A stretch of 64,000 bases of DNA, taken from IMG/VR virus record IMGVR_UViG_3300037264_005839. One strand, written 5' to 3'. Under the pieces are notes generated by a model. The model worked only from the letters and a program-made list of their open reading frames with translations, was not told where the DNA came from and made no database searches. Origin of the DNA: a virus. Below, in pieces: positions 1,728 through 53,006 of this stretch (positions within the stretch are counted from its first letter, which is position 1; each line of letters begins with the position of its first letter). A program made the position numbers and the translations under genes.

Positions 1728-1745
1728 AAGGGGGAGGAGACCCTC

Positions 1746-3007: not shown

Positions 3008-3008
3008 A

Positions 3009-3410: not shown

Positions 3411-3451
3411 TGGTGGGAGGTCATAGTCTGGCTATCGGAACCCATGGGTAG

Positions 3452-4699
3452 ATGGCCTTTCCGCCCATCCCTCCTCTGCCGCAGCTTCCATGGTCGCTGC
3501 CGTTTAATTTCACGATCCCGCCGTCCCACATCCTCACGTTGCCGGACGCCTCTGACGAATTTTGTGCGGAGTGCATCTCTTGCTTCCTCGACTGCCTCGT
3601 GACCGAGTGTGTGGGTCGGGCCGGCTGCGACTGGGTCATCATCCTCAACCGCAAGGTCTACTTCCTCAAGTGGCGAGACGTGACGCCACGGCCGCCGTGG
3701 ACACAACAGGTCTGGGACATCTTCAAGGTGCTCCCGCCGAACTGTGGGTGTCCTAGTGCGCCCGTGAGCTTGGGTTGGCAGTGGTGCTGGGCCGATGTCA
3801 TCAAGACCTTGCGCTACGACATCTTCCTGCACTGGCAGAACGGGGACATCTCTGGGAGCGGGCAGACGGTCGTGGCCATCGGAACGAACGCCTTCCAGTC
3901 CGCCACGGTCGGCATCCCACAGATTGGTCCCGTCCTCTACCTCGACGCAGCGGACTCGAGCTCCATCACGCTCAACGCTGGTTTCGTTGAGGCCTGGTCC
4001 GACAAGAGTACCTACTTCAACAATGCCGTGCAGGCGACGCCAGCCAACCGTCCCACGGTAGCCGCGGCATCTCTCAATGGACTCGACACGCTCCGCTTCG
4101 ATGCTGCGTTCGCGCAGTTCCTCGACGTGCCCACACTCAAGAAGCGCGCCGACTGGCATCTGTTCGTCGTGGGGCGCTTTTTCACGAACGCCGCGTGGCC
4201 TCGCGGCACCTTCTTTTCAGCGACCGGCTTTGATGCCACGTTCGGCGGCATCGAAGGCAAGGTGTATCAGGACGCGACCTTCCAACCGACAGGCACCCCC
4301 TTCACCTTCCTGAATCCGAACGACGTGCCCATGGTCGGCACGAGCTTGAGCTCGGGGACGTTCGGGATCTGGGAGTACCGCGAGAGCATCTCGGGCGACG
4401 GCACAATCAGTATCGGAGTGAATGCCTTCGATCAGCAGGTGTTCTCTGGGAACACGGCCGACGACTTCTGGGACCCGACACGGCAGACTTTCGGTGAGCC
4501 AATCCCTCTACCGGGGGCCGTGGGACGCTCGAACTGGGGAATCAACCCGCTCAGGATGTTCGACTATCTCGATGGGAACGTGGGTCAGCTCCTCCTCTAC
4601 CCGAGGGTGCTCTCCGAAGGAGAACGTGTCCAAGTGCTCAACGTGTTGCGGGCCAAGTGGGGCCTGGGCGCTCCCCTTCCTTTCCCACCCAACCCCTAG
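3452..4699 (+). CDS. hypothetical protein, C-terminal beta-sandwich (LamG/ConA-like?) region
   Basis: 415-aa ORF; good GC3; no catalytic motif recognised. Confidence 0.55.
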   Translation: MAFPPIPPLPQLPWSLPFNFTIPPSHILTLPDASDEFCAECISCFLDCLVTECVGRAGCDWVIILNRKVYFLKWRDVTPRPPWTQQVWDIFKVLPPNCGCPSAPVSLGWQWCWADVIKTLRYDIFLHWQNGDISGSGQTVVAIGTNAFQSATVGIPQIGPVLYLDAADSSSITLNAGFVEAWSDKSTYFNNAVQATPANRPTVAAASLNGLDTLRFDAAFAQFLDVPTLKKRADWHLFVVGRFFTNAAWPRGTFFSATGFDATFGGIEGKVYQDATFQPTGTPFTFLNPNDVPMVGTSLSSGTFGIWEYRESISGDGTISIGVNAFDQQVFSGNTADDFWDPTRQTFGEPIPLPGAVGRSNWGINPLRMFDYLDGNVGQLLLYPRVLSEGERVQVLNVLRAKWGLGAPLPFPPNP

Positions 4700-4714
4700 C
4701 CGGTAGAGTGGCGC

Positions 4715-5053
4715 ATGACCGACGCCGAATTCGTGGACGAGCTGGTCGAGCGATTGAACCTGTGGTTGCAGGGGGACCCTGACCGGGCCAACAAGGTTCT
4801 CTTGACCCCACTCGGTCACGCTGGCTACGCGAACGTGGGCCACCTCTTCAGCCAGTTCTGCTTCCCGCGGGGTATGGATCTCACGAAGCCCCCAGAGAGC
4901 GTGGACGAGGTCAGGTTTCTCTTCCCAGTGGTCGAGGATCGGAGGATCACCGCCTTCCGCTCCCTCTCAGGGGCCGAGATGCAGGAGCACCACCGGGCAA
5001 TGGCGGTGCGGGCGGCCAGCCAGGAGATGCCCAAAGACCCTCCGAAGCACTGA
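4715..5053 (+). CDS. hypothetical protein
   Basis: 112-aa ORF immediately preceded by CCGGTAGAGTGGCGC motif. Confidence 0.5.
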   Translation: MTDAEFVDELVERLNLWLQGDPDRANKVLLTPLGHAGYANVGHLFSQFCFPRGMDLTKPPESVDEVRFLFPVVEDRRITAFRSLSGAEMQEHHRAMAVRAASQEMPKDPPKH

Positions 5054-5102
5054 TCGGCTGACGGGGTAAAAGAAATGATCTTCCTCAGAGGAACAGACAA
5101 AC

Positions 5103-5540
5103 ATGACCACGCACACCTTCCAACTCAAAATTTCCAACTCCCTCCGAGAACTCTGCCGCCGCGCATGCCTCCAGCTCGAGAGTGAGAACGAGAAACTCTC
5201 TCTCTCCGTCGCCCAACATCTGCGGACAGCCACGAGCCTCAATGTGGACGAGGTTGCGCACCTCGAACAGGCACTCGTCGGCTACATCGATGCCAAACTC
5301 TCCAACGACATCGCGGCCCGCGACTTGGCCCGCAGTTTCGTCTGTGTGCTTGCAGATTTTCGCGCGACGCCGCTCGAGGCCGCTGTCCAAGAAGACCCGG
5401 CGCCTCAGCAGGCGAAGGCTGGCTTGGCCGCCCTTCACCGCGCGGATATGGAGTCGTTCAACCAGAAGCGTGACGAGATTTTCCGGCACATCTTCGGAGT
5501 GGACGCCGACCACACGATCTGGGGGACTGAGCGCAAGTGA
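5103..5540 (+). CDS. hypothetical protein
   Basis: 145-aa ORF; AGGAACAGACAAAC upstream. Confidence 0.5.
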   Translation: MTTHTFQLKISNSLRELCRRACLQLESENEKLSLSVAQHLRTATSLNVDEVAHLEQALVGYIDAKLSNDIAARDLARSFVCVLADFRATPLEAAVQEDPAPQQAKAGLAALHRADMESFNQKRDEIFRHIFGVDADHTIWGTERK

Positions 5541-5562
5541 CAGACGCAGTAACGAGTTTAAC

Positions 5563-6090
5563 GTGAGCGACTACGATATCGTCGAGGTCATCCGAGAACC
5601 GTACGACCCGCGCTTCCAACTATGGAAGCGAGAGGGGCTACGTCTTGAGCAAGGGGACAAGGTCCCCATCGTCGGGATGGCCCCCACCTACGCCGTGCGT
5701 CTGCATTCCCAGGTGCCGGCCCCCGCCCGCTACCTCTGGGTTCAGGACGGTGTCATCACCAATCCGATGGCCCACCAGCCTATCGGGGACGCCTCTGTTT
5801 TCGACGCATGGGGTCGCTACCTGGGACGAGGCGGAAGTCCGCTGGACCCTCCCGCCACGGGCACTTGGGAGCAAGTCCTGATACGGGAATTTTCCCCCTC
5901 ATCTTCCCCATCGCCCGTCGAGGCGTCCCCGACACCCACGGCAACCACCGAGATGTTGATGCACCGCTTTCATCTGCGACAGGATCTGGAGATTCAAGTG
6001 AGCCTTCCTGCGGATCTCGACGAACGCGATGTAGGACGCCTGTGCGTATTCCTGCGGTCTCTTCCCTTTGCATCGGAGAAGACTCCGTGA
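5563..6090 (+). CDS. hypothetical protein
   Basis: GTG 5563 in frame with ORF 5182..6090 after the end of the 5103..5540 gene; the upstream part of that ORF is a shadow of 5103..5540. Confidence 0.4.
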   Translation: MSDYDIVEVIREPYDPRFQLWKREGLRLEQGDKVPIVGMAPTYAVRLHSQVPAPARYLWVQDGVITNPMAHQPIGDASVFDAWGRYLGRGGSPLDPPATGTWEQVLIREFSPSSSPSPVEASPTPTATTEMLMHRFHLRQDLEIQVSLPADLDERDVGRLCVFLRSLPFASEKTP

Positions 6091-6809
6091 AGATCGCAGT
6101 GGCGAGCGATCTCCACTTTGAGTTTCACCGGGACGGCGGCTATACGCTTTCGCAGGAGCTGGCAGAGGCGGATGTGCTCGTGTGCGCAGGGGATCTGTCG
6201 AGCTCTCGCGGAATCGGAGGGGCGCTCCAACTGCTTTGCAGTCGCTACCCTCACGTCGTCTTCGTTGCCGGAAATCACGAGCCGTACGGGAGTTCTATCT
6301 CTCAGATTCGCGAGGTACTCCGTCGCGCAGAACAACACAGCAACGGGCGTCTTCACGTGCTCGACAACTCGGTGTGCGAGATCGGTGGCCAGCGGTTCGT
6401 CGGCACCACCATGTGGACCCGTCGAACGCCGGGTATTCAAAAACGCCAACGCATGCTCAGCGACTTCGAGTTGATCAAGGATGCCGACCCGCTAGTGTAC
6501 GAGGAGAACGAGCAAGCCATCGCATTCCTCGAGCGTGAGGTGTCCTTGAGCGACGTGGTTGTCACCCATCATCTGCCTGTCGAGGCATCCATCCACCAAC
6601 AGTACAAGGGCTCACCGCTCAACTGCTTCTTTCTGTGCGACATGGAGCCGCTCATCCTTGAGCGTCAGCCCAGGCTTTGGATCCACGGCCACACCCATAC
6701 GTCGGTGGACGTGAAGATCGGTGCCACCAGGATCTTGTGCAATCCTTTCGGCTACGCTGCCCATGAGGAGAACCCGTCATTCGATTCCAGGCTGATCGTG
6801 GAAATCTGA
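6087..6809 (+). CDS. calcineurin-like metallophosphoesterase
   Basis: GTG 6087 overlaps upstream stop (GTGA); motifs KIAVASDLHFE, GDL, VAGNHE, HGHTH typical of PF00149. Confidence 0.8.
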   Translation: MKIAVASDLHFEFHRDGGYTLSQELAEADVLVCAGDLSSSRGIGGALQLLCSRYPHVVFVAGNHEPYGSSISQIREVLRRAEQHSNGRLHVLDNSVCEIGGQRFVGTTMWTRRTPGIQKRQRMLSDFELIKDADPLVYEENEQAIAFLEREVSLSDVVVTHHLPVEASIHQQYKGSPLNCFFLCDMEPLILERQPRLWIHGHTHTSVDVKIGATRILCNPFGYAAHEENPSFDSRLIVEI

Positions 6810-7292: not shown

Positions 7293-8699
7293 ATGAGCTT
7301 CAAGTACATAGTCGAGGCCGTCTCGCCGAATCACTTCGTGCTCCCGAAGACGGGAGACATGCGGTGCCACGTGGACGCGTTCCTGAGCCAGTCGCTCTAC
7401 GAGCAGACGGACGAGGGGCTGTGGCAACAGGCCGTGGACTCTGCCTCGTACGACGGGGTGCTCGGCGTCTACCTGATGCCCGACACGCACCTCGGCTACG
7501 GCATCCCGGTCGGGGGTGTCGTGGTCACCGACAACACGATCATCCAGAGCGGGAGTGGCTACGACATCTCGTGCGGCGTTGTCCAGATGCGCGTGCCGAA
7601 GTTGCACGCCTCGGACGTTGCAGACTGGGACAAGCGCGAGCGGTGGGTCCGTGAGGTCGAGAAGCGCGTCGCTACGGGCCTCGGCAACGACCGACCGGAA
7701 CTCGCCAAGCGGATCAAGCACCGCCAAGTCGAAGATGTGCTCCGATTCGGCGCCAAGGCGCTTGGTGTCTCGGCGGATCTCTGCGAGCGCCAGTACATCG
7801 AGATCCCCGAGGACATCGACCTGACGAAGATCGAGAAGGCGCACGAGAAGTGCATCCACCAGCTCGGAAGTGTCGGAGGAGGCAATCACTTCATCGAGAT
7901 GCAGGTGGACCGTGACGAGGGCTCCGTGTGGGTGATGATCCACTGCGGGTCTCGGGGCTACGGTTGGCAGACCGCGAACCACTTTTTCCACGAAGGGGCT
8001 GCCCTCCGGGGTCTTCCAAAGAACCGACGCGAACAGTCGCACCTCTACGCGGACGAGCCCCTCGGCAAAGAATACTGGGCACATCACAACAGCGCGGCGA
8101 ACTTCGCCGTGGCGAACCGGCACACTATCGTCGAAGGCGTCCAGGAGGCACTCCGAGAGATCTATGGGACGGGGGGCGAGGTCTACTACGAGATCAGCCA
8201 CAACCTCGTGCAGCAGGAGACGCTCGTGCTCCCCGATGGCACGACCAAGAAGGGCTTCGTGCATCGCAAGGGCGCGACGCGTGCCTTCCCGGCCGGACAC
8301 CCGGATCTCCGAGGCACGAAGTGGGAAGGTACGGGCCACCCGTGCCTGATCCCGGGCTCGATGTTGAGCGGGGCCGCGATCTTGTTCCCGAAGGCCGGTG
8401 CCTACGCGTCGGGGTGCTCAGTCAACCACGGGAGCGGTCGCATGCTCGGACGCGCGGCGGCGAAGCGCGAACTCGGCGAGATGCAGGGGGACATCGACGA
8501 CGAGATGCGGACCATCGAGCGTGTGTTCGACGGGGTCCCCATCATAGGCATCGTCGGGAACACCGCGAAGACGCCGCTCGACGAGTGCGGCATGGTCTAC
8601 AAGGATCTCGACGCCGTGCTCGACGTGCTGGTTCAGGAGGGCATCGCCGAGATCGCGCACCGCATGTACCCCGTCGCCAACATTAAAGGAACCGACTGA
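7293..8699 (+). CDS. rtcB: RNA 3'-phosphate/5'-OH ligase RtcB
   Basis: 468 aa; GAGGAAA RBS; blocks GGGNHFIEMQ, HCGSRGYG, SVNHGSGR match RtcB family signatures. Confidence 0.9.
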   Translation: MSFKYIVEAVSPNHFVLPKTGDMRCHVDAFLSQSLYEQTDEGLWQQAVDSASYDGVLGVYLMPDTHLGYGIPVGGVVVTDNTIIQSGSGYDISCGVVQMRVPKLHASDVADWDKRERWVREVEKRVATGLGNDRPELAKRIKHRQVEDVLRFGAKALGVSADLCERQYIEIPEDIDLTKIEKAHEKCIHQLGSVGGGNHFIEMQVDRDEGSVWVMIHCGSRGYGWQTANHFFHEGAALRGLPKNRREQSHLYADEPLGKEYWAHHNSAANFAVANRHTIVEGVQEALREIYGTGGEVYYEISHNLVQQETLVLPDGTTKKGFVHRKGATRAFPAGHPDLRGTKWEGTGHPCLIPGSMLSGAAILFPKAGAYASGCSVNHGSGRMLGRAAAKRELGEMQGDIDDEMRTIERVFDGVPIIGIVGNTAKTPLDECGMVYKDLDAVLDVLVQEGIAEIAHRMYPVANIKGTD

Positions 8700-15318: not shown

Positions 15319-16614
15319 ATGAGTCGGCGACGCGTTGGGACCTTCCAGATGCTGTGGGACTGTTCCTGCGGCACCGGCCCCTTGCTGGGCATCGACCATC
15401 GGCACTGCCCTTCCTGTGGGCGCCCACAGGACCCCCTGCGTCGGTACTTCCCGGATCAGAGGGATGCGGTTCCGGCCCCCGAGTGGGTGGTCGGCAGCGG
15501 TGCTGACCTCTACTGCCCGTACTGCTCCACGGCCAACGTGGCCCAAGCCACCTTCTGTGTGGGTTGTGGGGGACCCATGGACGGCTCCAAGGAGGTCGAG
15601 CGTCGGGAGGCCAACCACGGGACCTCGGCCGAGACGATCCAAGACGCCCTCTCTGAGGCTCGCCAGGAGGCCCAGGAACGGCGCGAGGCCGTGGCAGAGG
15701 CCCAGGCCCCAGACGCGCAGCGGGCCCGGGAGAGGGCTCGTGCAGCCGATCAGGCAACCCCTCGTGAGAGCACGCAGGTGAGGGTGGAATCCCCGCGTAA
15801 ACCCCGCGCTCCGCATCCAAAAATGGCGGCCTTGAGGCGCCACTGGGATCACCTCCGACGACCGGCGATGGTCGGGATGGGGGTGCTCGGTTTGCTGGTG
15901 CTCCTGTGGGCCATCTTCGCGTGGGAGAAGACGATCACCGCCGAGGTTGAGCACCGCTCGTGGGAGCGCTCGCAGGAGATCGAGCGTTTCGTACAACTCT
16001 CTGACTCGTCGTGGTGCGACGACCGACCTGGAGATGCCTACGATGTTGATGAGAGTCGTCGACAACGAGGCACGAGGACAGTCATTGACTGTCGAGACTG
16101 CGACTGCCACACAGAGCAAGTCAAGGTTGGCGAGAACTGTTACGAGGCGAACTGCAGGACCGTCCGCACGGACAATGGCAACGGATCGTTCGACGTGACT
16201 GAAGTGTGCGACCGCAGGTGCGATCCCGTTCACGAAGACCGGCAGATCTGCAAGGACCGGACACACGAAGAGTCCGTCTACGACGAATGGTGCTCGTACA
16301 GGATGGACCGATGGCGACCCCACCGCACGGCCTCGGAAGAGGGCAACTTCTCGCGTGCCCCGGCGTGGCCGGAGCTCGATCTGCGGACGTGCGGCAGGAT
16401 CGAGTTCGGGTGCGAACGACCGGGAGCCAGGAAAGAGAACTACGTCGTCAGTTTCCGCGACGTGCAGGATGACGAGCACTACGAGTGCTCCTACCCGCAG
16501 TCGGCGTGGACTCGATACGAAGAAGGAAGTTTGTGGAAGGCAACGGTGAAGCGTCTCGGTGGCCGCTTCCAATGTGCCTCGCTCGTTGCCATGGCTTCGG
16601 AGACGGAGATCTGA
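15319..16614 (+). CDS. membrane protein with N-terminal zinc ribbons and Cys-rich extracytoplasmic domain
   Basis: CPSCG, CPYCS, CVGCG, then TM segment VGMGVLGLLVLLWAIFAW, then many Cys; TATAAG 7 nt upstream of ATG (leaderless-type). Confidence 0.6.
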   Translation: MSRRRVGTFQMLWDCSCGTGPLLGIDHRHCPSCGRPQDPLRRYFPDQRDAVPAPEWVVGSGADLYCPYCSTANVAQATFCVGCGGPMDGSKEVERREANHGTSAETIQDALSEARQEAQERREAVAEAQAPDAQRARERARAADQATPRESTQVRVESPRKPRAPHPKMAALRRHWDHLRRPAMVGMGVLGLLVLLWAIFAWEKTITAEVEHRSWERSQEIERFVQLSDSSWCDDRPGDAYDVDESRRQRGTRTVIDCRDCDCHTEQVKVGENCYEANCRTVRTDNGNGSFDVTEVCDRRCDPVHEDRQICKDRTHEESVYDEWCSYRMDRWRPHRTASEEGNFSRAPAWPELDLRTCGRIEFGCERPGARKENYVVSFRDVQDDEHYECSYPQSAWTRYEEGSLWKATVKRLGGRFQCASLVAMASETEI

Positions 16615-16633
16615 TCATGGGAGAGAACGGAAG

Positions 16634-17500
16634 ATGACCGACAAGACCTCACTTGGGGACAGGATGAAACACTACGAGGAGGTGTCCTGCACCATCCTCA
16701 CGCCTCGCATGCCGATGATCATCCGCATCGACGGACGTGCCTTCCACACGTACACGAAGAAACTGCATCACGGGATGCGGGAAGAGTCTCCGTGGAATCC
16801 CGTGATGCGCGATGCGATGACGGCTGCCGCCCGCGGTCTCATGCGTGAGATCAGCGGGGCCAAGATTGCATACCTCCAGTCTGACGAGATCAGCGTCCTC
16901 GTCACCGACTACGACAAACTGTCTTCGCAGGCTTGGTTCGACAAGGCCGCGCAGAAGGTGTGCTCGGTGGGGGCGTCCATCGCTACGATGGAGTTCAACA
17001 ACAACATCCGCGACTACATCGACTCCGGGCTCCCCGCCGAGATGTTCCCGACGACTGCGACGTTCGACGCGCGCGTCTTCGTGGTGCCGAGGGAGGATGT
17101 CTGCAACTATTTCATCTGGCGGCAGCGGGATGCAGAGAAGAACTCGATCTCGATGCTGGCGCAGACGCATTTCTCCCCCAAGCAGCTCCATGGCAAGGAC
17201 GGCAACGCAAAGCAGGACATGTTGATGCTCGAGAAGGGCGTCAACTGGAACGACCTGCCGACGTGGCAGAAACGCGGGTGGTGCGTGGACCGCAAGACGA
17301 TCACCATGACCGTGGCCGAACTCGAGATGGCGGGCGGCAAAGTGACACGGAATCCCGGCGTTGTGCTCGACCCGAACACCGAGGTCACACGCACCGTGGT
17401 TGAACCTGACTGGGAGATCCCGATCTTCACGAAGGACCGCGGCTACATCGATCAGTTCGTGAACGTGGACGAGGCGCCCTTGAAGGGGGAGGAGCCCTGA
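16634..17500 (+). CDS. Thg1-like protein (tRNA-His guanylyltransferase family 3'-5' polymerase)
   Basis: RMKHYE, RIDGRAFH, QSDEISV, FDARVF, NYFIWRQRDAEKNSI, WQKRGWC blocks. Confidence 0.8.
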   Translation: MTDKTSLGDRMKHYEEVSCTILTPRMPMIIRIDGRAFHTYTKKLHHGMREESPWNPVMRDAMTAAARGLMREISGAKIAYLQSDEISVLVTDYDKLSSQAWFDKAAQKVCSVGASIATMEFNNNIRDYIDSGLPAEMFPTTATFDARVFVVPREDVCNYFIWRQRDAEKNSISMLAQTHFSPKQLHGKDGNAKQDMLMLEKGVNWNDLPTWQKRGWCVDRKTITMTVAELEMAGGKVTRNPGVVLDPNTEVTRTVVEPDWEIPIFTKDRGYIDQFVNVDEAPLKGEEP

Positions 17501-25013: not shown

Positions 25014-25366
25014 ACTCGACTTCGACCGCGGGCACGACGATCACGTTCACATGGAATACGGTCGCTCCGTCGAATACCACATTCACAACGAATACGGTCG
25101 CTCCGTCGAATACCACATTCACAACGACTTCCTCCGCCCACGTTCCGAAGAAGGCATCGCTTCAAAAACCCACCCCTCCACCACCGAAATTTCGGAAGGG
25201 CGACCCTGTGCGGGTGACTGCCGCAGGCGTCCTCCGCGGACGCATGGGTCTCGTGGAGGGCTTCTTGGCTGTGGGGGATCAATGGACCGTTTTCGTGGGA
25301 TGGCCTGATGGGGGCTGGACGACCTTGGGGGAAACCTCCTTGGAGACGGTGCCAGAAACCGAGTAG
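25001..25366 (+). CDS. hypothetical protein containing an exact 12-aa tandem repeat (NTVAPSNTTFTT x2)
   Basis: coding frame chosen by GC3 and a conserved-looking C-terminal domain; the repeat is encoded by the 36-bp tandem duplication. Confidence 0.45.
   Translation: MLFLNSTSTAGTTITFTWNTVAPSNTTFTTNTVAPSNTTFTTTSSAHVPKKASLQKPTPPPPKFRKGDPVRVTAAGVLRGRMGLVEGFLAVGDQWTVFVGWPDGGWTTLGETSLETVPETE
25054..25125 (+). repeat. perfect 36-bp x2 in-frame tandem duplication
   Basis: GAATACGGTCGCTCCGTCGAATACCACATTCACAAC occurs twice back-to-back. Confidence 0.9.
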
Positions 25367-27420: not shown

Positions 27421-27993
27421 ATGGACTTCCTCGCTTGGCACAACGTGCTGTTCCTCTCCTCGACCGGCATCGGCATCTTGATTGCCATCAGCGCTGCCCT
27501 CGGAGCCGCAGACCTCGACGACCCGGACTTTGACGAGGGAGGTGGCTCAGAGGGTCCTCGACATGGGATCCTGAGTTTCCTCGATCTCGGTCATATCCCC
27601 TTCACCGTTCTCCTCCTGGTCTCGAGCCTCACGTTCGGGATCACCGGCGTGGCCGGGAGTTTAACGGCCGCGAAATTGCTCGGCAGTGACGGGCCCTGGA
27701 TGGGCGTCGTGCTGGTGGTGATCGCCTTCGCCGTCATGATCTTTCTGACCGGACGCCTCGCGCGACTGATCATCAAACACGTGCCTGCTTCCGAGACGCA
27801 TGTAGCGAGCCCGGTCGACGTTGTTGGGCACGAAGGGGTGATGTTCACGTTCTCGTTCGCCGACGTGTGCATCGGAGCAGACGTGCACAGGATCTCGTGC
27901 AGGAGCGAGAGCACCCTCGCTCCCGGAGCGCGCGTTCACGTGCTCAGCTACGACGACGACACCAAGACCTACGAAGTCACTCCGCTCAACTGA
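27421..27993 (+). CDS. NfeD-like membrane protein
   Basis: three TM segments plus a C-terminal beta-barrel-like tail; immediately upstream of the flotillin gene. Confidence 0.6.
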   Translation: MDFLAWHNVLFLSSTGIGILIAISAALGAADLDDPDFDEGGGSEGPRHGILSFLDLGHIPFTVLLLVSSLTFGITGVAGSLTAAKLLGSDGPWMGVVLVVIAFAVMIFLTGRLARLIIKHVPASETHVASPVDVVGHEGVMFTFSFADVCIGADVHRISCRSESTLAPGARVHVLSYDDDTKTYEVTPLN

Positions 27994-28017
27994 GCCTCAC
28001 CAGGAACATACAGACAA

Positions 28018-29856
28018 ATGGCACTCACACTCCTCTTCATCGTTGGGTTGCTGCTTTTGGCAGCCCCCATTCTCCTGCCAATCTTTGGCATCAACATCCC
28101 CCTCTCCGCCACCTTCGCCATGCTCGGTGTGGGCGGCTCTCTGGTCGGCCTCATCGGCCTCCTGTGGATCTTCAAGAAGCTGTACGTCAAGACGCGCGCC
28201 GACTTGGCGTTCGTGCGCACGGGACGAGGGTTCAAGATCATCAAGGATGGGGGCAGCATCGTGATCCCGTTCCTGCACGAGATCATCTGGGTCTCGCTGC
28301 GTACTTTCGAGGTGAAGGTGGAGCGCCGAGACAAGGATGCTCTCCTGACGAAGGACAAACTGCGGGCAAACATCGCCGCCGAGTTCTACGTGAAGGTCAA
28401 GCCGGACGACGACGCCATCGGAGCGGCGAGCCGTTCTTTCGGTGAGGAGATGAACGCACATGGCATCCTCCGCATCGTCGAGAAAAAGTTGATCAGCAAC
28501 CTGCGCACCGTTGCCGCGCAGAAGACTCTTGAGGAGCTGAACTCGGACCGCGCAGCTTTCATGGAGCAGGTGACCCACCTCTGCGCGCAGGATCTGATCC
28601 ACAACGGCCTCACACTGGAGTCGGCGGCCATCTCGTCGCTGGACCAGACGAGCAGTGAACACCTGGACCCGAAGAATGTCTTCGACGCCCAAGGCCTCAG
28701 GACCATCGCCGACATCACGGAGGCGAACATGACCCACACAAACAAGCTCCAACGCAACGGCGAGGAGGCGCGCAAGCGCCAAGACGTCGAAACGCGCAAG
28801 GCCATGCTCTCGCTCGAGCAGGAGCGGGAAAAGGCCGAGGCCGAGCAGATAGCCGAGATCAAGCGCATCAAGGCTGAACAGGGGCGACTGGCCCGCGAGA
28901 AGGAGATCGAGGCTACGAAGGCGGTCGAGCTCGCAGAGGTTGAGAAGCACGAGCGTATCGAGGTTGCCAAGAAGGCACAGGAGCAGGCTGTCGAGGTCGC
29001 CGCGCAGGCGAAGGAGCAAGCCGTCGAGGTTGCCACCAGGGCCAAGGAAGCCGCCATCTCCACGGCCGAGAAGGAGCGCGCCGAGAAACAGGCCGAGCAG
29101 GCCGACGCCGAGCGACTGCGTCAGGAGAAGACGGAGGCAATCAAGACCGTCACCATGGTGCAGGAGGCCGAGCGCAAGAAGCAGCAGGCGATCATCGAAG
29201 CGCAGGCTGAGGCCGAGCGCAAGCTGATCTCCGCGCAGAAAGGTGCCGACGCCGAGGCGTACAAGGTGGAGAAAGACGCCGCGGCCCGGAAGGCGGCTGC
29301 TGATGCCGACGCTGAGGCCACGCGCAAGAAGGCCGAGGCGGACAAAGACGCCGAAATCGCCCGCGCAGAGGGCGAGAAGGCGAGGGCCATGGTGCCTATT
29401 GAGGTCAAGAAGGCCGAGCTCGCCATCGAAAAAAGCCGGATCGAGGAGGTCGTCAAGCCGGAACTCGAGGCTCGCGATGCTCACGGCCAGTCGGCGCAGG
29501 AGTTTGAGCTGGCGAAGCTGTATATCGAGGAGCACGCCAAGGTGGAGATCGAGCGCGCGAAGGCCAGCGTCGAGATCTACCGCAAGGTCGAGGTGCAGGC
29601 TTTCACCACGCTCGAGCAGATGGCTGCCGTGCAGCAGCAAGTCGTCCGGGGTCACGGGCTCGCCGGCATGATCAATGGATTTCGCGAGAATCTCGACGTT
29701 GACTCGGCATCTGAGGCAGTCGGAGCCATCAAGAGCATCATCGAAGCTATTCGCGGGTCGCAGCCCAAGTCGGGATCGAACGGAGCACCTGAACCCAAAA
29801 CGGTCGCTCCGAGCGTTTCTCCAGCACCCGCCGCGAAGCCGACGCCCGCAGGCTGA
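28018..29856 (+). CDS. flotillin-like SPFH/band-7 protein
   Basis: N-terminal TM, SPFH core, long E/A/K-rich coiled coil (YqiK/FloT architecture). Confidence 0.8.
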   Translation: MALTLLFIVGLLLLAAPILLPIFGINIPLSATFAMLGVGGSLVGLIGLLWIFKKLYVKTRADLAFVRTGRGFKIIKDGGSIVIPFLHEIIWVSLRTFEVKVERRDKDALLTKDKLRANIAAEFYVKVKPDDDAIGAASRSFGEEMNAHGILRIVEKKLISNLRTVAAQKTLEELNSDRAAFMEQVTHLCAQDLIHNGLTLESAAISSLDQTSSEHLDPKNVFDAQGLRTIADITEANMTHTNKLQRNGEEARKRQDVETRKAMLSLEQEREKAEAEQIAEIKRIKAEQGRLAREKEIEATKAVELAEVEKHERIEVAKKAQEQAVEVAAQAKEQAVEVATRAKEAAISTAEKERAEKQAEQADAERLRQEKTEAIKTVTMVQEAERKKQQAIIEAQAEAERKLISAQKGADAEAYKVEKDAAARKAAADADAEATRKKAEADKDAEIARAEGEKARAMVPIEVKKAELAIEKSRIEEVVKPELEARDAHGQSAQEFELAKLYIEEHAKVEIERAKASVEIYRKVEVQAFTTLEQMAAVQQQVVRGHGLAGMINGFRENLDVDSASEAVGAIKSIIEAIRGSQPKSGSNGAPEPKTVAPSVSPAPAAKPTPAG

Positions 29857-29906
29857 TCTTCGAACAGCCCGGAGAGCCCCCACCCTCCGGGCTGTATCAT
29901 GTCGAC

Positions 29907-30122
29907 ATGGCCAGCTCTCCGGCTTGTTCAACCATCAGCGACCCCGCATACGCGACCGAGACCGAGGTCGTGATCCTTCGCGGTCGCGTCACCGAGCTGG
30001 AAGCGCTCGTGGAGCTCCTTCAGAAGAAGATCGAGACAATGGAGAGCGAAAATGTCGAACTCCGAATGGTTGTGAAGGGAATGCGCGACGGGGTGTGGCT
30101 TAGTCAAGGCGACCGGCTTTAG
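29907..30122 (+). CDS. hypothetical small coiled-coil protein
   Basis: 71-aa ORF. Confidence 0.4.
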   Translation: MASSPACSTISDPAYATETEVVILRGRVTELEALVELLQKKIETMESENVELRMVVKGMRDGVWLSQGDRL

Positions 30123-33237: not shown

Positions 33238-33699
33238 ATGGCATTCACTGAACAGCAGGCACTTGAGAAGGCCGTGTTGGTCGCTGCGATGTCGCCATGC
33301 GCCAAGAGCAAGCGCGGGGTGGTCATCTTCCACCGGCGCCAGGGGATCGTTGCGACCGGGTTCAACCATCCGCCCCACCCTTTCAAGTGCGACGGATCGG
33401 AAGAATGCCGCACCAACTGCAACAAGGTCTGCGTTCACGCTGAGACGGCGGCCCTTCACGACCTCAGACTTCAACTCGTGCGACTGCACCCGAACACCCT
33501 TGAGATGCTGCACGTCAAAGCCGTCGACGGTACGGCCGTAGCGAGCGGTCCTCCTTCGTGCTGGCAGTGCTCGCGCGAGATCCTCGAGGCGCGCATCTCC
33601 GCCTTCTGGCTACTGCATGCCGAGGGGTTGCGCCGTTACACGGCCGAGGAGTTTCACACTCTAACCATGCAGCAATGCGGGCTGCCGGTGATCCGATGA
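33238..33699 (+). CDS. dCMP/cytidine-deaminase-fold zinc enzyme
   Basis: VHAETAAL ... PCWQC (H-x-E ... PC-x2-C zinc site). Confidence 0.7.
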   Translation: MAFTEQQALEKAVLVAAMSPCAKSKRGVVIFHRRQGIVATGFNHPPHPFKCDGSEECRTNCNKVCVHAETAALHDLRLQLVRLHPNTLEMLHVKAVDGTAVASGPPSCWQCSREILEARISAFWLLHAEGLRRYTAEEFHTLTMQQCGLPVIR

Positions 33700-34838
33700 A
33701 GATCGTCTACGCTCTCCAAGAACCTCCCACCACGATCGAACGATCCGTGTTCCTCGCAGGACCCACTCCCAGGGCCGAGACAGGGGGCAGCTCGTGGCGC
33801 CCGGCCATGCTCGACGCCCTGCGGGCTGCCGGATACGACGGGGTCGTATACGTCCCTGAGACCGAGGACGGACGGTGGCAGCACAGCTACGTCGATCAGG
33901 TTGGGTGGGAGCAGCGGTACTTGGACCAAGCCGACCTCATCCTGGTGTGGGTGCCGCGAGATCTCTCGATCCTTCCCGGATTCACGACGAACTTCGAGAT
34001 GGGTGAGCGGCTGTCGTCGGGCCGTCTCGTGTACGGGCGCCCAGACGGAGCTCCCAAGACCCAGTATCTCGACCGACGCGTGTTTCTTGAGCCCGGTGGT
34101 TTCGTGCACCAGACCATGAACAGTCTTGCCGAGGAGACGGTCGTTCGACTTGGCCGCCCACATCCGAGGACGGATGGGGAGCGGTCTGTCCCGGCCCTCG
34201 TGTGGGCAAGCCCACAGTTCCAAGCATGGTACGCGTCGGTGCGTGACGCCGGCAATCGTCTCGACGACGCGCGCATTCTGTGGGTGTTCCGCGTTGGGCC
34301 AGGCGCGCGCTTCCTGTTCTCGTACGCCTTGTGGGTCAAGGTCTGGGTGGCACAGGAAAACAGGCACAAGGAAAATGAGTACGTGTTCTCGCGGACGGAT
34401 ATCTCCTGCGTCGTGGCTCACCGCGGCGACGAGGTCGTCCTCGTTCGAGAGTTCCGCTCCCCGGGTCGCACGCGCGACGGATTCGTCCATGAACTTCCCG
34501 GAGGGTCCTCTTTCAAGCCAGGACGCGACCCGCTCGTCTGTGCCGCGGAGGAGCTGAGAGAAGAAACGGGACTGCGGGTGGACGCCTCGAGATTCCGCGT
34601 GGTCGGAGAACGTCAGGTCGCAGCCACTCTCTCGAGCCACACGGCGCATGTCTTCGCAGTAGAACTCACTGCCGAGGAGATAGCGTGGGCGCGCGCGGAA
34701 GCCGACGCAAGCATCTTCCGTGGAGTCGCGGCCGACTCCGAGCGCACGTACATCGAGGTTGTTACCGTTGGGGGGATCGTTCGTGACCGTCTGCTCGACT
34801 GGTCGAGCCTCGGCATGATCTTGGAGGCGCTCGCATGA
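33696..34838 (+). CDS. nucleoside 2-deoxyribosyltransferase-like domain fused to a NUDIX domain
   Basis: N-term IVYALQEPP..VFLAGP; C-term Nudix box GGSSFKPGRDPLVCAAEELREETGL. Confidence 0.6.
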   Translation: MKIVYALQEPPTTIERSVFLAGPTPRAETGGSSWRPAMLDALRAAGYDGVVYVPETEDGRWQHSYVDQVGWEQRYLDQADLILVWVPRDLSILPGFTTNFEMGERLSSGRLVYGRPDGAPKTQYLDRRVFLEPGGFVHQTMNSLAEETVVRLGRPHPRTDGERSVPALVWASPQFQAWYASVRDAGNRLDDARILWVFRVGPGARFLFSYALWVKVWVAQENRHKENEYVFSRTDISCVVAHRGDEVVLVREFRSPGRTRDGFVHELPGGSSFKPGRDPLVCAAEELREETGLRVDASRFRVVGERQVAATLSSHTAHVFAVELTAEEIAWARAEADASIFRGVAADSERTYIEVVTVGGIVRDRLLDWSSLGMILEALA

Positions 34839-48348: not shown

Positions 48349-49206
48349 CTAGCGCGTCAGGAAATCCACGAGCTCAGGTAACACGACGCCGGCTCGGCCG
48401 CGCAGCCACACCCCTTGCTGCCGTGCAAGGTTAGCGAGGGGGCTGTCCTCAGGGTTGACATCGATGACAATCGCGTCTCGGACCACCGCGTAGTTCGTCA
48501 AGATCTGCGCGATTGGGACGACGGCACTGCACCCCACGGTGAGGACGAGATCGGCCTCCTGTGCGAAGTTGTGGGCCTCCTCGCTCCGGTAGAGCTCCTG
48601 CGAGTACATCTCATCGAACAGGAGCACGTGCGGCCGCATGATGTATCCGCAGTCGGGACAGGTCAGGTCCTCGGGAAACCGGGCGTTCTCTGGAATGTCC
48701 GCGAATTTCGGAACGCCCTGGTTGTTACGTAACCAGCACTCGTCGCTGCATCGCATGCGCTTGTCCCCGTGGAGTTCGATGCACTTCTCGGGTGTGTTGC
48801 CGGCTTCAAGGTGCAGCCCATCGATGTTCTGCGTGACGAGCAGGAACTGACCCTCCGTGGAGTGCATGTAATTCTCGAGGTAGGCGATGGCTAGGTGCGC
48901 CGGGTTGGGCTCCTTACCGCGCATCGTTCCAGCGAATCGGTCAAGGTAGTACTCCCAGAGTTTGTCGATCTGGTGCTCAACCGTGGTACTGCGCAGGAAC
49001 TCAACCGGATTCCAATCGTCGGAATCGTAGATCCCGGTACCGTCGACAGAGCGGAATGTTGGGATACCACTCTCGGCCGAGATGCCAGCTCCGGTGATGA
49101 CGAGCACCTTCCCTTCGTGGACAGCACGACGGGCCCGGCTCCACACGCGGGACGGGATCGAAGCAAGGGCCTCCACTTCTTGTTCGTGCAAGGAAGTTGT
49201 CGTCAT
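48349..49206 (-). CDS. Sir2-family NAD-dependent deacylase (sirtuin) with zinc ribbon
   Basis: GAGISAESGIPTFR, CPDCG...C, catalytic-His region; start ATG 49206 overlaps upstream stop. Confidence 0.8.
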   Translation of the reverse strand: MTTTSLHEQEVEALASIPSRVWSRARRAVHEGKVLVITGAGISAESGIPTFRSVDGTGIYDSDDWNPVEFLRSTTVEHQIDKLWEYYLDRFAGTMRGKEPNPAHLAIAYLENYMHSTEGQFLLVTQNIDGLHLEAGNTPEKCIELHGDKRMRCSDECWLRNNQGVPKFADIPENARFPEDLTCPDCGYIMRPHVLLFDEMYSQELYRSEEAHNFAQEADLVLTVGCSAVVPIAQILTNYAVVRDAIVIDVNPEDSPLANLARQQGVWLRGRAGVVLPELVDFLTR

Positions 49207-49436
49207 GAAATCTCTGGTTCCTTCCACCCGGACTGGCTGCGGATCTCGATAATTTGTTCCCACGAGAGCTTCTCAGGGTTGAGCGCCTCGTCGGGATCTA
49301 TCCACCCCTGACGCCGGGCATACCCCGTCGAGAAGACGGCTCGCGCCATCCCGATGCGCTGGACCTCGGCCGCCTCGTCCTCAGATCCGAGGTGAACGAA
49401 GACGCCCTTGCCGAAGGGGTTTTTGATGGTTGCCAT
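49203..49436 (-). CDS. hypothetical small protein
   Basis: ATG preceded by GGGGGTATAACGCTGGAGGC. Confidence 0.45.
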   Translation of the reverse strand: MATIKNPFGKGVFVHLGSEDEAAEVQRIGMARAVFSTGYARRQGWIDPDEALNPEKLSWEQIIEIRSQSGWKEPEIS

Positions 49437-51565: not shown

Positions 51566-52213
51566 ATGAAGGAAGCCACCATGTCGAAGCACCACGTCCT
51601 ACGCCGCATCCTCGCGTGCGCCCTCACGGCCGCGATCCCCACCACGCTCGTCCTCCAGTCGGCAGGATGCCTGTGCGGCGTGGACAAGCACGACAAACTC
51701 ACGGCGACGTACCTGACCTGTGACGAAGAGTGGGCGAACATCGAGGCGCAGTACCAGCGCCGCATGGACCTCATCCCGAACCTCGTGAAGGTCGTGAAGG
51801 CATCCGCAGCTCACGAGAAGGACACGCTCGAGGCCGTGATGAAGGCGCGCGCCGAGGCGTCGAAAGTCACTCTCGACGCGAAGTCCCTCTCCGATCCCGA
51901 AGCGATGGCGAAGTTCCAGGCGGCGCAAGGCGAGGTGTCACAGGCACTCGGCAAACTGATGATGGTCTCGGAGGCATACCCGGACCTCAAAGCCAACGAG
52001 CAGTTCGCCACGCTGATGGAGCAGATCGAGGGCACGGAAAACCGCATCCTCGTCGCCCGCAAGAAGTACAACGCCGCCGTCAAGGACTACAACTTCGAGG
52101 TGATGAACTCGGGCGGCAAGGTCTTCAACGCGATCACCGGCGAGATGTTCACGGCCCGCGTCATGTTCACGGCCCAAGCGGGTGCCAACCAGGCGCCGGA
52201 AGTGGACCTGTAG
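51566..52213 (+). CDS. LemA-family protein
   Basis: N-terminal TM; EEWANIEAQYQRRMDLIPNLV...; start could be the second ATG at 51581 (AAGGAAG RBS). Confidence 0.75.
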   Translation: MKEATMSKHHVLRRILACALTAAIPTTLVLQSAGCLCGVDKHDKLTATYLTCDEEWANIEAQYQRRMDLIPNLVKVVKASAAHEKDTLEAVMKARAEASKVTLDAKSLSDPEAMAKFQAAQGEVSQALGKLMMVSEAYPDLKANEQFATLMEQIEGTENRILVARKKYNAAVKDYNFEVMNSGGKVFNAITGEMFTARVMFTAQAGANQAPEVDL

Positions 52214-52214
52214 G

Positions 52215-53006
52215 ATGCAGGCACTCTCGCGCGGGCTCCTCGCGGCAATCGTCGCGCTCGTAGTTTTTCTGCTGAGTTCCGTCGCGTCGGCGGAGTTCAA
52301 GGTGCCACCTCGGCCCGATGGTCCCGTCCACGACGGTGCCGACGTGCTGACGGGCGCACAGGAACGCGCACTTGAGATCAAGCTGGAGAAGTTCCGCGAC
52401 GCCCAAGGCCCTTCCGTCGTCGTGGCATTCATCCCGTCACTCGACGGCGAGCCCATCAACGAGGCCGCGTACGAGATCTTCTCGGCATGGGGCATCGGCA
52501 AGAAGAAACAGAATGATGGTGTGCTCCTCCTGATATCGGTCGCGGAGGCGAAAAAGGCAGGGCCCGGCGCCACGAAGTGCGGCTGTGCGAGGATCGAGGT
52601 CGGCGAGTACATCGAGGGCACCCTCACGGACGCCCGATCTCTCAAGATCCTCAAGGACGATGTGCTCGCGGCCGTCGTGAGCGGCAAGTTCGATGAGGGC
52701 GCCACCAAGGCCACGGACAGCATCATCGGTGTCCTCTCAGGCGACCCAGAGGCCCTTTCGGCGACCGACCCGGGGGATGGGGGCTCCGGCCTCCCCGACC
52801 TGCCCTGGTGGCTCTGGGTGGCCCTCGTGCTGCTCGGCCTCTACGTCCTCTACATCGCCGCCAAGCACGGCCTTCTGGAGGCATTCCTCAGCGGTGGAGG
52901 GGGATCGAGCGGGGGATCCTGGGGTGGGGGATCCAGCGGAGGGGGATCGAGTGGTGGCTCGTCCTTCGGAGGGGGATCGAGCGGAGGCGGGGGCGCCAGC
53001 GTCTGA
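52215..53006 (+). CDS. TPM-domain (TLP18.3/Psb32-like) protein with Gly/Ser-rich tail
   Basis: signal peptide, TPM core DGADVLTG...VVVAFIPSLDG...GVLLLISV, TM, GGGSSGG repeats. Confidence 0.75.
   Translation: MQALSRGLLAAIVALVVFLLSSVASAEFKVPPRPDGPVHDGADVLTGAQERALEIKLEKFRDAQGPSVVVAFIPSLDGEPINEAAYEIFSAWGIGKKKQNDGVLLLISVAEAKKAGPGATKCGCARIEVGEYIEGTLTDARSLKILKDDVLAAVVSGKFDEGATKATDSIIGVLSGDPEALSATDPGDGGSGLPDLPWWLWVALVLLGLYVLYIAAKHGLLEAFLSGGGGSSGGSWGGGSSGGGSSGGSSFGGGSSGGGGASV

What the first reader, a model, noticed from the sequence alone, without database searches (positions are those of the whole stretch)
27421..29856. Phage-borne NfeD-flotillin membrane-microdomain module
Seen in sequence: an NfeD-like three-TM protein is followed directly by a 612-aa flotillin (TM + SPFH + long E/A-rich coiled coil). 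This is the classic bacterial operon order. Established: flotillins scaffold functional membrane microdomains, and NfeD partners them. Inference: the phage may remodel host membrane organisation, for example for replication compartment, assembly or superinfection exclusion. A second membrane pair, LemA+TPM (51566-53006), strengthens the theme.
Basis: partly seen in the sequence, partly recalled or inferred. Interest (0 to 1): 0.5.

Follow-up and report, generated by a model that had tools for sequence, protein, structure and literature searches.

The report
Flotillin-NfeD gene pair in huge phage
A fragment of a very large bacteriophage genome carries an intact two-gene bacterial cassette (YqiJ/NfeD-like partner plus YqiK-type flotillin) that builds membrane scaffolds; related phages keep it, other huge phages carry it too, and its role during infection is untested.

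Summary
ORF 27421-27993 is a three-helix membrane protein of the YqiJ family whose modelled C-terminal domain is an NfeD-type OB fold. ORF 28018-29856, 24 bp downstream, is a YqiK-type flotillin with a hydrophobic hairpin, an SPFH domain and about 300 residues of A/E/K-rich helix. YqiJ sits directly upstream of the flotillin in 75 of 87 loci examined.

The context is phage. The window is collinear with a 619-kb IMG/VR viral genome at one end, and with three phage-like contigs around the pair. In those contigs the pair occupies the same slot and shows dN/dS of 0.16-0.37.

The closest non-phage copies (68-70% identity) lie in a conserved chromosomal locus of Nannocystaceae-like myxobacteria. Those bacteria share only the two genes with the phage, so the cassette moved between phage and bacterium. 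The direction is unresolved.

The same pair occurs in nine further viral contigs (32-469 kb, seven measured at GC 27-58%), including the cultured jumbo phage Phosso. I found no paper describing it.

The function is inferred: a cytoplasm-facing SPFH-NfeD cage that preserves or reorganises the host membrane during infection. This is a new member of a known kind, of moderate interest.

The parts
27421..27993 (+). yqiJ-like gene: NfeD-family partner protein, 190 aa
   Evidence: Pfam YqiJ_N E 6e-8. The start 'MDFLAWHN' is conserved in bacterial and phage homologues. Identity to bacterial and phage homologues is 54-60%. dN/dS is 0.31-0.37 against the phage copies.
27427..27780 (+). Membrane part of the YqiJ-like protein (aa 3-120): three helices with an acidic loop after helix 1
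   Evidence: Hydropathy segments at 8-32, 49-82 and 86-119. AlphaFold helices at 3-30, 50-87 and 92-120. The same layout appears in 20 aligned homologues, all of which match YqiJ_N.
27808..27990 (+). C-terminal OB-fold domain of the YqiJ-like protein (aa 130-190), the predicted flotillin-binding domain
27994..28017 (+). 24-bp spacer between the two genes, with AGGAA 11 nt before the flotillin ATG
   Evidence: Read from the sequence. No terminator-like or sigma-70-like site lies between or around the genes, which is consistent with co-transcription. This is inferred.
28018..29856 (+). yqiK-type flotillin gene, 612 aa
   Evidence: Pfam Band_7 E 2e-9. 34% identity to E. coli YqiK, E 1e-61. More than 1800 homologues, several named flotillin or YqiK by their sources. 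dN/dS is 0.16-0.31 among phage copies.
28018..28182 (+). N-terminal hydrophobic hairpin or anchor (aa 1-55)
   Evidence: Hydropathy. AlphaFold helices at 2-23 and 29-55 with pLDDT 80-85. It is followed by the basic stretch KKLYVKTR.
28183..28722 (+). SPFH/Band-7 domain (aa 56-235)
   Evidence: The Pfam match covers residues 65-209. This is the densest block of invariant residues across 16 homologues.
28723..29577 (+). A/E/K-rich helical 'flotillin' region (aa 236-520)
   Evidence: Composition A 22%, E 20%, K 12%. Modelled helices at 227-346 and 351-527. It aligns to Flotillin-1 up to about residue 420.
29578..29853 (+). C-terminal region with a short helix and a Pro/Ala-rich tail (aa 521-612)
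   Evidence: Read from the sequence. Model confidence is low here. 'GHGLAGMINGF' is conserved with the bacterial clade.
51566..53006 (+). Separate LemA + TPM-domain membrane pair. It shares the theme but was not shown to be linked to the module.
   Evidence: Pfam LemA E 2.5e-48 and TPM_phosphatase E 1.2e-28. LemA homologues occur in other large phages.

Best explanation
The two genes are an intact YqiJ/YqiK-type NfeD-flotillin cassette carried on a fragment of a huge bacteriophage genome. The host is probably a Nannocystaceae-like myxobacterium.

Shown here: the family identity and architecture of both proteins; the phage context; vertical maintenance of the pair under purifying selection in a lineage of at least four collinear phage contigs; transfer of exactly these two genes between that lineage and a bacterial lineage; and recurrence of the same pair in nine other viral contigs.

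Inferred mechanism: both genes are transcribed within the long co-directional phage gene block, and both proteins insert into the host inner membrane. The flotillin's SPFH domain and long helical region face the cytoplasm and oligomerise into a dome or cage. The OB domain of the YqiJ-like partner binds the flotillin and promotes or stabilises that assembly, as in the solved QmcA-YbbJ cage.

Inferred purpose: the phage supplies its own copy of a host envelope-stress and membrane-organising scaffold. This would keep the membrane fluid, energised and intact, and keep membrane-protein complexes functional, through a long infection after host gene expression declines. The LemA+TPM pair may serve the same end.
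For: Identity.

Conserved pairing.

Phage context:
- Genes typical of huge phages are present (RtcB, Thg1, IF3, DNA methyltransferases, DHFR, a sigma factor, two 'virion structural' PHROGs), and most ORFs have no family.
- Window 1.5-6.8 kb is collinear with a 618,736-bp IMG/VR genome.
- 12 to 15 flanking genes are collinear with L002 and L007, and the L102 gene table shows the same methyltransferase - DHFR - three small genes - YqiJ - flotillin order.

Selection: dN/dS is 0.16-0.37, and the family's invariant residues are kept.

Cassette exchange: bacterial contigs L003, L006 and L103 share only the two genes, at 55-70% identity, in a conserved chromosomal locus. The bacterial lineage is assigned to Nannocystaceae through a neighbouring CzcA gene.

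Recurrence: a 305-kb contig, seven IMG/VR contigs of 32-424 kb, and the cultured 469-kb phage Phosso.

Mechanistic analogy, from papers: the QmcA-YbbJ cage of 26 heterodimers protrudes into the cytoplasm, and S. aureus FloA-NfeD stabilises unfolded proteins under stress (PMC13086221). B. subtilis floA and floT belong to the sigma-W regulon, which responds to membrane stress including phage infection (PMC8581546). The YqiK C-terminus is predicted to be cytoplasmic (10.1101/2022.07.25.501378).
Against: - There are no data on expression, localisation or phenotype.
- No hallmark capsid, portal or terminase gene was identified inside the window.
- The flotillin model is of low confidence (pLDDT 56), so oligomerisation is by analogy only.
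- E. coli and P. aeruginosa SPFH mutants show few or subtle phenotypes, so a strong benefit is not assured.
- The related 619-kb viral genome was not found to carry the pair, so the pair is not universal even among relatives.
- dS is near saturation, so the dN/dS values are rough.
Confidence: 0.55

Rival explanations
1. The phage proteins do not maintain the membrane but hijack or exclude. One version: they co-assemble with the host's own 68-70% identical flotillin and retarget host microdomains. Another version: they form a membrane structure that blocks DNA entry by competing phages (superinfection exclusion) or neutralises membrane-acting abortive-infection effectors.
For: High identity to the probable host's copy would permit mixed oligomers. 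Phage membrane proteins with no lysis role are often exclusion factors (general knowledge). Recurrence in many unrelated large phages shows a phage-specific benefit.
Against: There is no match to any PADLOC defence model. Nothing distinguishes the phage copies in length or architecture from the bacterial ones. No known exclusion system uses SPFH-NfeD, and none was found in the literature searches.
Confidence: 0.15
2. The cage acts as a protease or quality-control compartment, as HflK/C does for FtsH. It would sequester or regulate a host membrane protease or unfolded membrane proteins, protecting phage proteins or timing lysis.
For: HflK/C cages regulate FtsH. S. aureus FloA-NfeD acts as an ATP-independent holdase. 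Large extrachromosomal elements also carry SPFH proteins alongside FtsH copies.
Against: The YqiK type faces the cytoplasm, whereas HflK/C faces the periplasm. No FtsH or protease gene was seen beside the pair in any phage locus. The YqiJ-like partner is a short NfeD with no protease domain.
Confidence: 0.12
3. The window is not phage DNA. It would be bacterial chromosome, a genomic island or a megaplasmid-like element, and the pair would be ordinary cellular cargo.
For: No capsid, portal, terminase or integrase gene was identified in the window. There is no nucleotide match to 50,697 phage records, and the contig is not in IMG/VR. Megaplasmids can carry SPFH and translation genes.
Against: Several genes are collinear with a 619-kb IMG/VR viral genome. 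There are PHROG virion-structural hits. Most ORFs are small, co-directional and without family. No conjugation, partition or housekeeping genes were seen among the reported Pfam families. True bacterial contigs share only the two genes.
Confidence: 0.07
4. The pair is a neutral, recently captured passenger with no function for the phage.
For: Huge phages accumulate host-like genes. Mutants of bacterial homologues have weak phenotypes.
Against: The pair sits in the same slot in four diverged collinear phage contigs whose flanking genes are only 36-69% identical. dN/dS is below 0.4. Both ORFs are intact in all 13 viral contigs.
Confidence: 0.03

Closest known systems
E. coli YqiJ-YqiK (NfeD-like protein plus flotillin-family inner-membrane protein)
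   Same: The gene order and spacing are the same (yqiJ, then yqiK 26 bp later). The flotillin is 34% identical over 437 aa. The partner matches Pfam YqiJ_N. The architecture is the same: anchor, SPFH, long helical region.
   Different: The partner is only about 20% identical and does not reach the YqiJ_OB model. The flotillin has an extra N-terminal hydrophobic helix and is 59 aa longer. The location is a phage genome.
B. subtilis NfeD2 (YuaF)-FloT (YuaG)
   Different: The score is far below the FloT equivalog cut-off, 27 against 700 bits, so it is not a FloT orthologue. FloT is under sigma-W control, whereas here there is no recognisable host-type promoter.
E. coli QmcA-YbbJ SPFH-NfeD cage (cryo-EM, Tan et al. 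2024, as cited in PMC13086221)
   Same: It is an SPFH protein plus its NfeD operon partner, forming a cytoplasm-facing cage. It is the best structural template for how the pair may work.
   Different: QmcA is stomatin-like and short, and the gene order is reversed (SPFH first). There is no detectable sequence match of the YqiJ-like profile to any PDB chain.
SPFH-domain ORFs noted in other phages (T4-like 44RR, Aeh1 and RB43; Schitoviridae GIB1; Xanthomonas phage X1)
   Same: These are phage-encoded SPFH-domain proteins of unknown role.
   Different: They are reported only as single SPFH or Band-7 domain hits in annotation tables. No NfeD partner or flotillin-type helical region is mentioned. 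tblastn of the window flotillin against 50,697 phage records found only one full YqiK-type gene, in Phosso.
Sinorhizobium phage Phosso gp491-gp492 (469-kb cultured jumbo phage)
   Same: A YqiJ_N+YqiJ_OB protein lies directly upstream of a 566-aa SPFH protein that is 35% identical to the window flotillin. This is the only isolate found with the pair.
   Different: It is distant and branches outside all other sequences in the tree. The flanking genes are unrelated. A TelA-like gene lies two genes downstream.
HflK/HflC-FtsH complex
   Same: It belongs to the SPFH superfamily, forms an oligomeric membrane cage, and has a classical link to phage biology through FtsH.
   Different: It faces the periplasm and has no NfeD partner. 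There is no Pfam or NCBIfam match to HflK/C models.

Membership tests
SPFH superfamily, flotillin type (YqiK/FloT-like) | SPFH/Band-7 domain | tested here: met
   Pfam PF01145 E 2.2e-9, 38 bits against a cut-off of 23.6, residues 65-209.
SPFH superfamily, flotillin type (YqiK/FloT-like) | N-terminal membrane anchor (TM helix or hairpin) | tested here: met
   Residues 1-53 are hydrophobic. Modelled helices at 2-23 and 29-55, pLDDT 80-85.
SPFH superfamily, flotillin type (YqiK/FloT-like) | Long heptad-rich, Glu/Ala-rich helical 'flotillin' region after the SPFH domain | tested here: met
   Residues 236-520 are A 22%, E 20%, K 12%. Helices at 227-346 and 351-527. The region aligns to Flotillin-1 residues 25-343.
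SPFH superfamily, flotillin type (YqiK/FloT-like) | Sequence relationship to named flotillins | tested here: met
   E. coli YqiK E 1e-61. Human Flotillin-1 E 1e-5. Homologues are named flotillin or YqiK by JGI.
SPFH superfamily, flotillin type (YqiK/FloT-like) | Orthology to B. subtilis FloT (NCBIfam equivalog NF058507) | tested here: not met
   27 bits against a cut-off of 700. E. coli YqiK is also below it at 86 bits. The protein is therefore YqiK-like, not FloT.
SPFH superfamily, flotillin type (YqiK/FloT-like) | Oligomerisation into membrane foci or cages | not testable with these tools
   Only a low-confidence monomer model is available. This needs biochemistry or cryo-EM.
NfeD family, short form (YqiJ subfamily) | Multi-helix membrane N-terminal part of YqiJ type | tested here: met
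   Pfam YqiJ_N E 6e-8, above its cut-off. Three helices. 20 of 20 aligned partners match YqiJ_N.
NfeD family, short form (YqiJ subfamily) | C-terminal five-strand OB fold (partner-binding domain) | tested here: met
NfeD family, short form (YqiJ subfamily) | Sequence match to Pfam NfeD (PF01957) or YqiJ_OB (PF07290) | tested here: not met
   There is no hit at E <= 0.1 for the window protein. Only 4 of 20 relatives reach YqiJ_OB and 2 of 20 reach NfeD. The close subfamily, including its bacterial members, has a shortened OB domain.
NfeD family, short form (YqiJ subfamily) | Encoded next to, and in the same direction as, an SPFH gene | tested here: met
   24-bp gap. The same arrangement occurs in 75 of 87 loci and in 7 of 7 IMG/VR loci.
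NfeD family, short form (YqiJ subfamily) | Physical binding to the SPFH partner | not testable with these tools
This needs a complex prediction or a pull-down.
Phage-encoded auxiliary (host-like) gene | Lies inside a viral genome with viral genes on both sides | tested here: met
   Collinear phage genes lie on both sides in L002 and L007, and L102 has the same gene order. The window is collinear with a 619-kb IMG/VR genome. No capsid or terminase gene was identified in the window itself.
Phage-encoded auxiliary (host-like) gene | Maintained under selection in the phage lineage | tested here: met
   dN/dS is 0.16-0.37, with dS near saturation. The syntenic slot is kept in four contigs.
Phage-encoded auxiliary (host-like) gene | Expressed during infection | not testable with these tools
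   No transcript data are available. No promoter or terminator was predicted nearby.
Known anti-phage defence systems (PADLOC) | Match to a defence-system protein model | tested here: not met
   No PADLOC family matches either protein at E <= 0.01.

The most novel reading that the evidence does not exclude
Huge phages of many hosts maintain their own flotillin-NfeD cages as a dedicated phage membrane platform, not merely a spare copy of a host gene. Such a platform might anchor or time replication, assembly, exclusion or lysis. In addition, phages act as vectors and even donors of this cassette to bacteria: the Nannocystaceae chromosomal yqiJK locus would descend from a phage copy, as the nested tree topology suggests.
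Probability: 0.12. Interest if true: 0.75.

Novelty: new member of a known kind. Interest (0 to 1): 0.45.

Why it matters
What bacterial flotillins and their NfeD partners actually do remains unsettled, because mutants usually show weak phenotypes. Phages keep only genes that pay their way. A cassette retained under selection in a phage lineage, and present in many unrelated large phages, therefore points to a condition (infection) in which the scaffold matters.

It also offers a tractable test system: phage Phosso on Sinorhizobium meliloti. The finding adds membrane-homeostasis genes (flotillin-NfeD, LemA-TPM) to the known repertoire of huge phages. It gives a host clue (Nannocystaceae-like myxobacteria) for an uncultured huge-phage lineage. 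It also documents exchange of a precise two-gene cassette between phage and bacterium.

Tried and rejected
- **Nucleotide searches:** megablast of 20 kb of the window against 50,697 phage records found no match. An exact 48-mer from the flotillin gene was not found in IMG/VR.
- **Family libraries:** PHROGs and PADLOC gave no family for either protein.
- **GTDB genomes:** the single-protein scan confirmed nothing. The alignment-based scan gave only relatives at 48% identity or less, so the 70% bacterial clade has no GTDB representative there.
- **IMG/VR pattern scans:** the scan with the close-family alignment A3 found nothing. Only the broader alignment A4 worked.
- **The 619-kb relative:** I looked for the pair near it by searching with the gene downstream of the pair (A7) and found none. 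The 2074-aa protein also had no IMG/VR relative.
- **Flotillin structure:** the AlphaFold model was too poor (pLDDT 56) to use for fold search.
- **Partner protein against the PDB:** a sequence-profile search with the YqiJ-like alignment found nothing meaningful.
- **Large ORFs against the PDB:** sequence searches with three large window ORFs, aimed at finding virion hallmarks, found nothing.
- **Signals and tRNAs:** the promoter and terminator scan gave nothing above shuffled expectation. There are no tRNAs in the window.
- **Organism names:** the cluster look-up gave none.
- **Literature:** searches for phage flotillin, YqiK or NfeD found only annotation-level mentions of SPFH domains.
- **Readings rejected:** the minus-strand shadow ORF 27997-29931 (644 aa) as a gene, because of its codon-position GC and the homology of the plus frame; a known defence system; and HflK/C identity.
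Full report
**1. Observation**

Both show the codon-position GC pattern of real genes in this 61% GC sequence (GC3 0.79 and 0.82; GC2 0.45 and 0.39). The long minus-strand ORF that overlaps the second gene is a shadow frame.

**2. Identity of ORF1**

- It matches Pfam YqiJ_N (E 6e-8, above the curated cut-off) and nothing in PHROGs or PADLOC.
- Hydropathy and an AlphaFold model agree on three membrane helices (about 3-30, 50-87, 92-120) with an acidic loop after the first. A basic stretch, a conserved P-x-x-E-T motif and a five-strand beta domain at 138-188 (block pLDDT 81-90) follow.
- 'NfeD-like three-TM protein' is therefore correct. More precisely it is a short NfeD of the YqiJ subfamily.
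- Its sequence does not reach the Pfam NfeD or YqiJ_OB models. Only 4 of 20 aligned relatives reach YqiJ_OB and 2 reach NfeD. The closest subfamily, including its bacterial members, has a shortened OB domain.

**3. Identity of ORF2**

- It matches Pfam Band_7/SPFH (E 2e-9).
- It is 34% identical to E. coli YqiK over 437 residues (E 1e-61) and matches human Flotillin-1 chains at E 1e-5.
- Its only NCBIfam hit is the FloT model, far below the equivalog cut-off, as is E. coli YqiK itself.
- Residues 1-53 form a hydrophobic hairpin. Residues 56-235 are the SPFH domain. Residues 236-520 are 22% Ala, 20% Glu and 12% Lys and are modelled as two very long helices.
- The whole-protein model is of low confidence (pLDDT 56), so I did not use it further.

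**4. The pairing is the family norm**

With HMMs built from the aligned homologues, a YqiJ-like ORF lies directly upstream of the flotillin in 75 of 87 loci fetched. This includes E. coli yqiJ-yqiK and all seven IMG/VR loci. A published description of E. coli also notes the NfeD-like yqiJ upstream of yqiK (10.1101/2022.07.25.501378).

**5. Is it phage?**

The window has no nucleotide match in 50,697 phage records, and its contig is not in IMG/VR. Its content is nevertheless that of the accessory region of a huge phage:

- About 70 mostly small, mostly co-directional ORFs, most without any family.
- RtcB, Thg1, translation factor IF3, several DNA methyltransferases and DHFR.
- A nucleoside deoxyribosyltransferase-NUDIX fusion, AlkB-like, EndoV, Sir2, HD and metallophosphoesterase proteins, and a sigma factor.
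- Two 'virion structural protein' PHROGs.
- Giant ORFs of 1013 and 2074 aa.

Two results are decisive. First, the 415-aa structural-PHROG protein (3452-4699) is 72% identical to a protein of IMG/VR genome UViG_3300022719_000283, which is 618,736 bp. tblastx shows window 1.5-6.8 kb collinear with that genome over several genes. Second, 12 and 15 genes flanking the pair are collinear, at 36-69% identity, with two phage-like metagenome contigs (L002, L007). The gene table of a third contig (L102) shows the same order: methyltransferase, DHFR, three small genes, YqiJ, flotillin.

I found no capsid, portal, terminase, integrase, conjugation or housekeeping gene in the window. I give about 7% to a non-phage origin. 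Megaplasmids can also carry SPFH and translation genes.

**6. Evolution**

- The flotillin has more than 1800 homologues. The nearest, at 64-72% identity, fall into two sets.
- Set one is the phage contigs above.
- Set two is bacterial contigs (L003, L006, L103). There the pair sits in a conserved chromosomal locus (AstE/AspA-like gene, YqiJ, flotillin, four Usp genes, a sigma-54 activator), with ECF sigma, RND efflux, chemotaxis and Ser/Thr kinase genes around it.
- These bacterial contigs share only the two genes with the window. Their GC is 67-68%.
- The CzcA pump next to the pair in L003 is 68-82% identical to Enhygromyxa, Pseudenhygromyxa and Nannocystaceae proteins. The bacterial lineage is therefore a Nannocystaceae-like myxobacterium and a plausible host group. 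This host assignment is inferred.
- Neighbour-joining trees of the whole flotillin, of the SPFH part, of the helical part and of YqiJ all give the same topology. The window groups with the bacterial clade (bootstrap 95-98%), then with the other phage contigs (100%), then with a clade holding a 305-kb phage-like contig and a bacterial sequence (93%).
- This shows transfer of exactly the two-gene cassette between phage and bacterium. It does not fix the direction. The candidates are phage-to-bacterium transfer, replacement of the phage copy by a host copy, or rate artefacts.
- Within the phage lineage the pair is under purifying selection. dN/dS is 0.16-0.31 for the flotillin and 0.26-0.37 for YqiJ, with dS near saturation.

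**7. Recurrence in other phages**

The same ordered pair occurs in:

- a 305-kb phage-like contig;
- seven IMG/VR contigs of 32-424 kb with GC 27-58%, three of them above 200 kb;
- the cultured 469-kb Sinorhizobium jumbo phage Phosso. There the upstream 'hypothetical protein' matches both YqiJ_N and YqiJ_OB, and a TelA-like gene lies two genes downstream.

These copies fall in at least four or five separate supported clades mixed with bacterial sequences. The backbone of the tree is unsupported. They share no flanking genes with the window.

Among deposited phage genomes, Phosso is the only record with a full YqiK-type gene. No deposited phage record has a detectable relative of the window's YqiJ.

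**8. Mechanism (inferred)**

By analogy with solved SPFH assemblies, the flotillin should oligomerise on the cytoplasmic face of the host inner membrane, with the YqiJ-like OB domain bound to it. The analogues are the QmcA-YbbJ cage of 26 SPFH-NfeD heterodimers facing the cytoplasm, and the flotillin and HflK/C cages (PMC13086221; PDB 9bq2).

Bacterial flotillins influence membrane fluidity. In B. subtilis they belong to the sigma-W envelope-stress regulon, which responds to phage infection among other stresses (PMC8581546). S. aureus FloA-NfeD stabilises unfolded proteins under stress.

I therefore favour a membrane-homeostasis role. The phage supplies the scaffold itself so that the membrane stays energised and intact through a long infection. 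The confirmed LemA+TPM pair, also seen in other large phages, fits this but is not shown to be connected.

Rival roles cannot be excluded: hijack of host microdomains, superinfection exclusion, or a protease and quality-control compartment. A neutral passenger is unlikely.

**9. Novelty**

SPFH-domain ORFs in phages have been listed since 2006, and their purpose has been called unclear (PMC1524935, PMC13239085, PMC13384950). I found no description of a complete flotillin-NfeD cassette in phages.

The proteins themselves are orthodox family members. The finding is therefore a new member of a known kind in an unusual carrier, with moderate interest and a clear experimental route.

Noticed in passing
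window 53029-53550 (-): A complete translation initiation factor IF3 gene (IF3_N E 2e-29, IF3_C E 3e-32; PHROG 'translation initiation factor' E 9e-45) lies directly after the LemA-TPM pair. Translation genes are typical of huge phages.
   Followed up: partly
window 7293-8699 (+) and 16559-17500 (+): RtcB RNA ligase (E 4e-85) and a Thg1-type tRNA-His guanylyltransferase (PHROG E 2e-87) suggest a tRNA repair or maturation set. ARAGORN nevertheless finds no tRNA gene in the 64 kb.
   Followed up: partly
window 51566-53006 (+): LemA and a TPM-domain protein overlap by 32 nt. LemA weakly matches the magnetosome protein MamQ model, and TPM weakly matches Psb32. LemA homologues occur in a 240-kb Acinetobacter phage and a 635-kb uncultured phage.
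   Followed up: partly
window 53839-63177 (-): Two giant ORFs (1013 aa with a Laminin_G_3/ConA-like domain, and 2074 aa with no family) lie on the opposite strand, where GC skew turns negative. The only phage match is a short stretch in a 485-kb uncultured phage. They may be fibre or structural proteins.
   Followed up: partly
window 33558-34838 (+): A fusion of a nucleoside 2-deoxyribosyltransferase-like domain and NUDIX, 59% identical in phage contig L002. There it sits beside genes with CTP_transf_like and dCMP deaminase domains and near a UDG-like gene. Together with DHFR and several methyltransferases this hints at DNA base modification.
   Followed up: no
window 25042-25127: A 36-bp tandem repeat (2.4 copies, 94% match) lies in the gap between the C5-cytosine methyltransferase gene and the next gene. 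Its purpose is unknown.
   Followed up: no
window 48349-49263 (-): A Sir2-family protein (Pfam E 3e-29; PHROG E 1e-32) is encoded on the minus strand in a phage context. It could relate to NAD metabolism or counter-defence.
   Followed up: no
L001 (Sinorhizobium phage Phosso) 5290-9470: In Phosso the YqiJ-flotillin pair is followed, one gene later, by a 'toxic anion resistance' (TelA-like) protein, which is another membrane-stress-associated gene.
   Followed up: no
L010, L011, L018, L019 (GTDB MAG contigs): Flotillin pairs from MAGs labelled Enterobacteriaceae, Magasanikbacteria and Uhrbacteria group together in the tree, with three of them forming a 100%-bootstrap clade. For such unrelated taxa this suggests a shared mobile element or mis-binned phage contigs.
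   Followed up: no
L101 (IMG/VR UViG_3300022719_000283, 618,736 bp) against window 1500-6800: Several genes are collinear at 50-75% amino-acid identity with a 619-kb viral genome of 57% GC. This places the window in a very large phage lineage. The flotillin pair was not detected in that genome by the pattern scans.
   Followed up: partly
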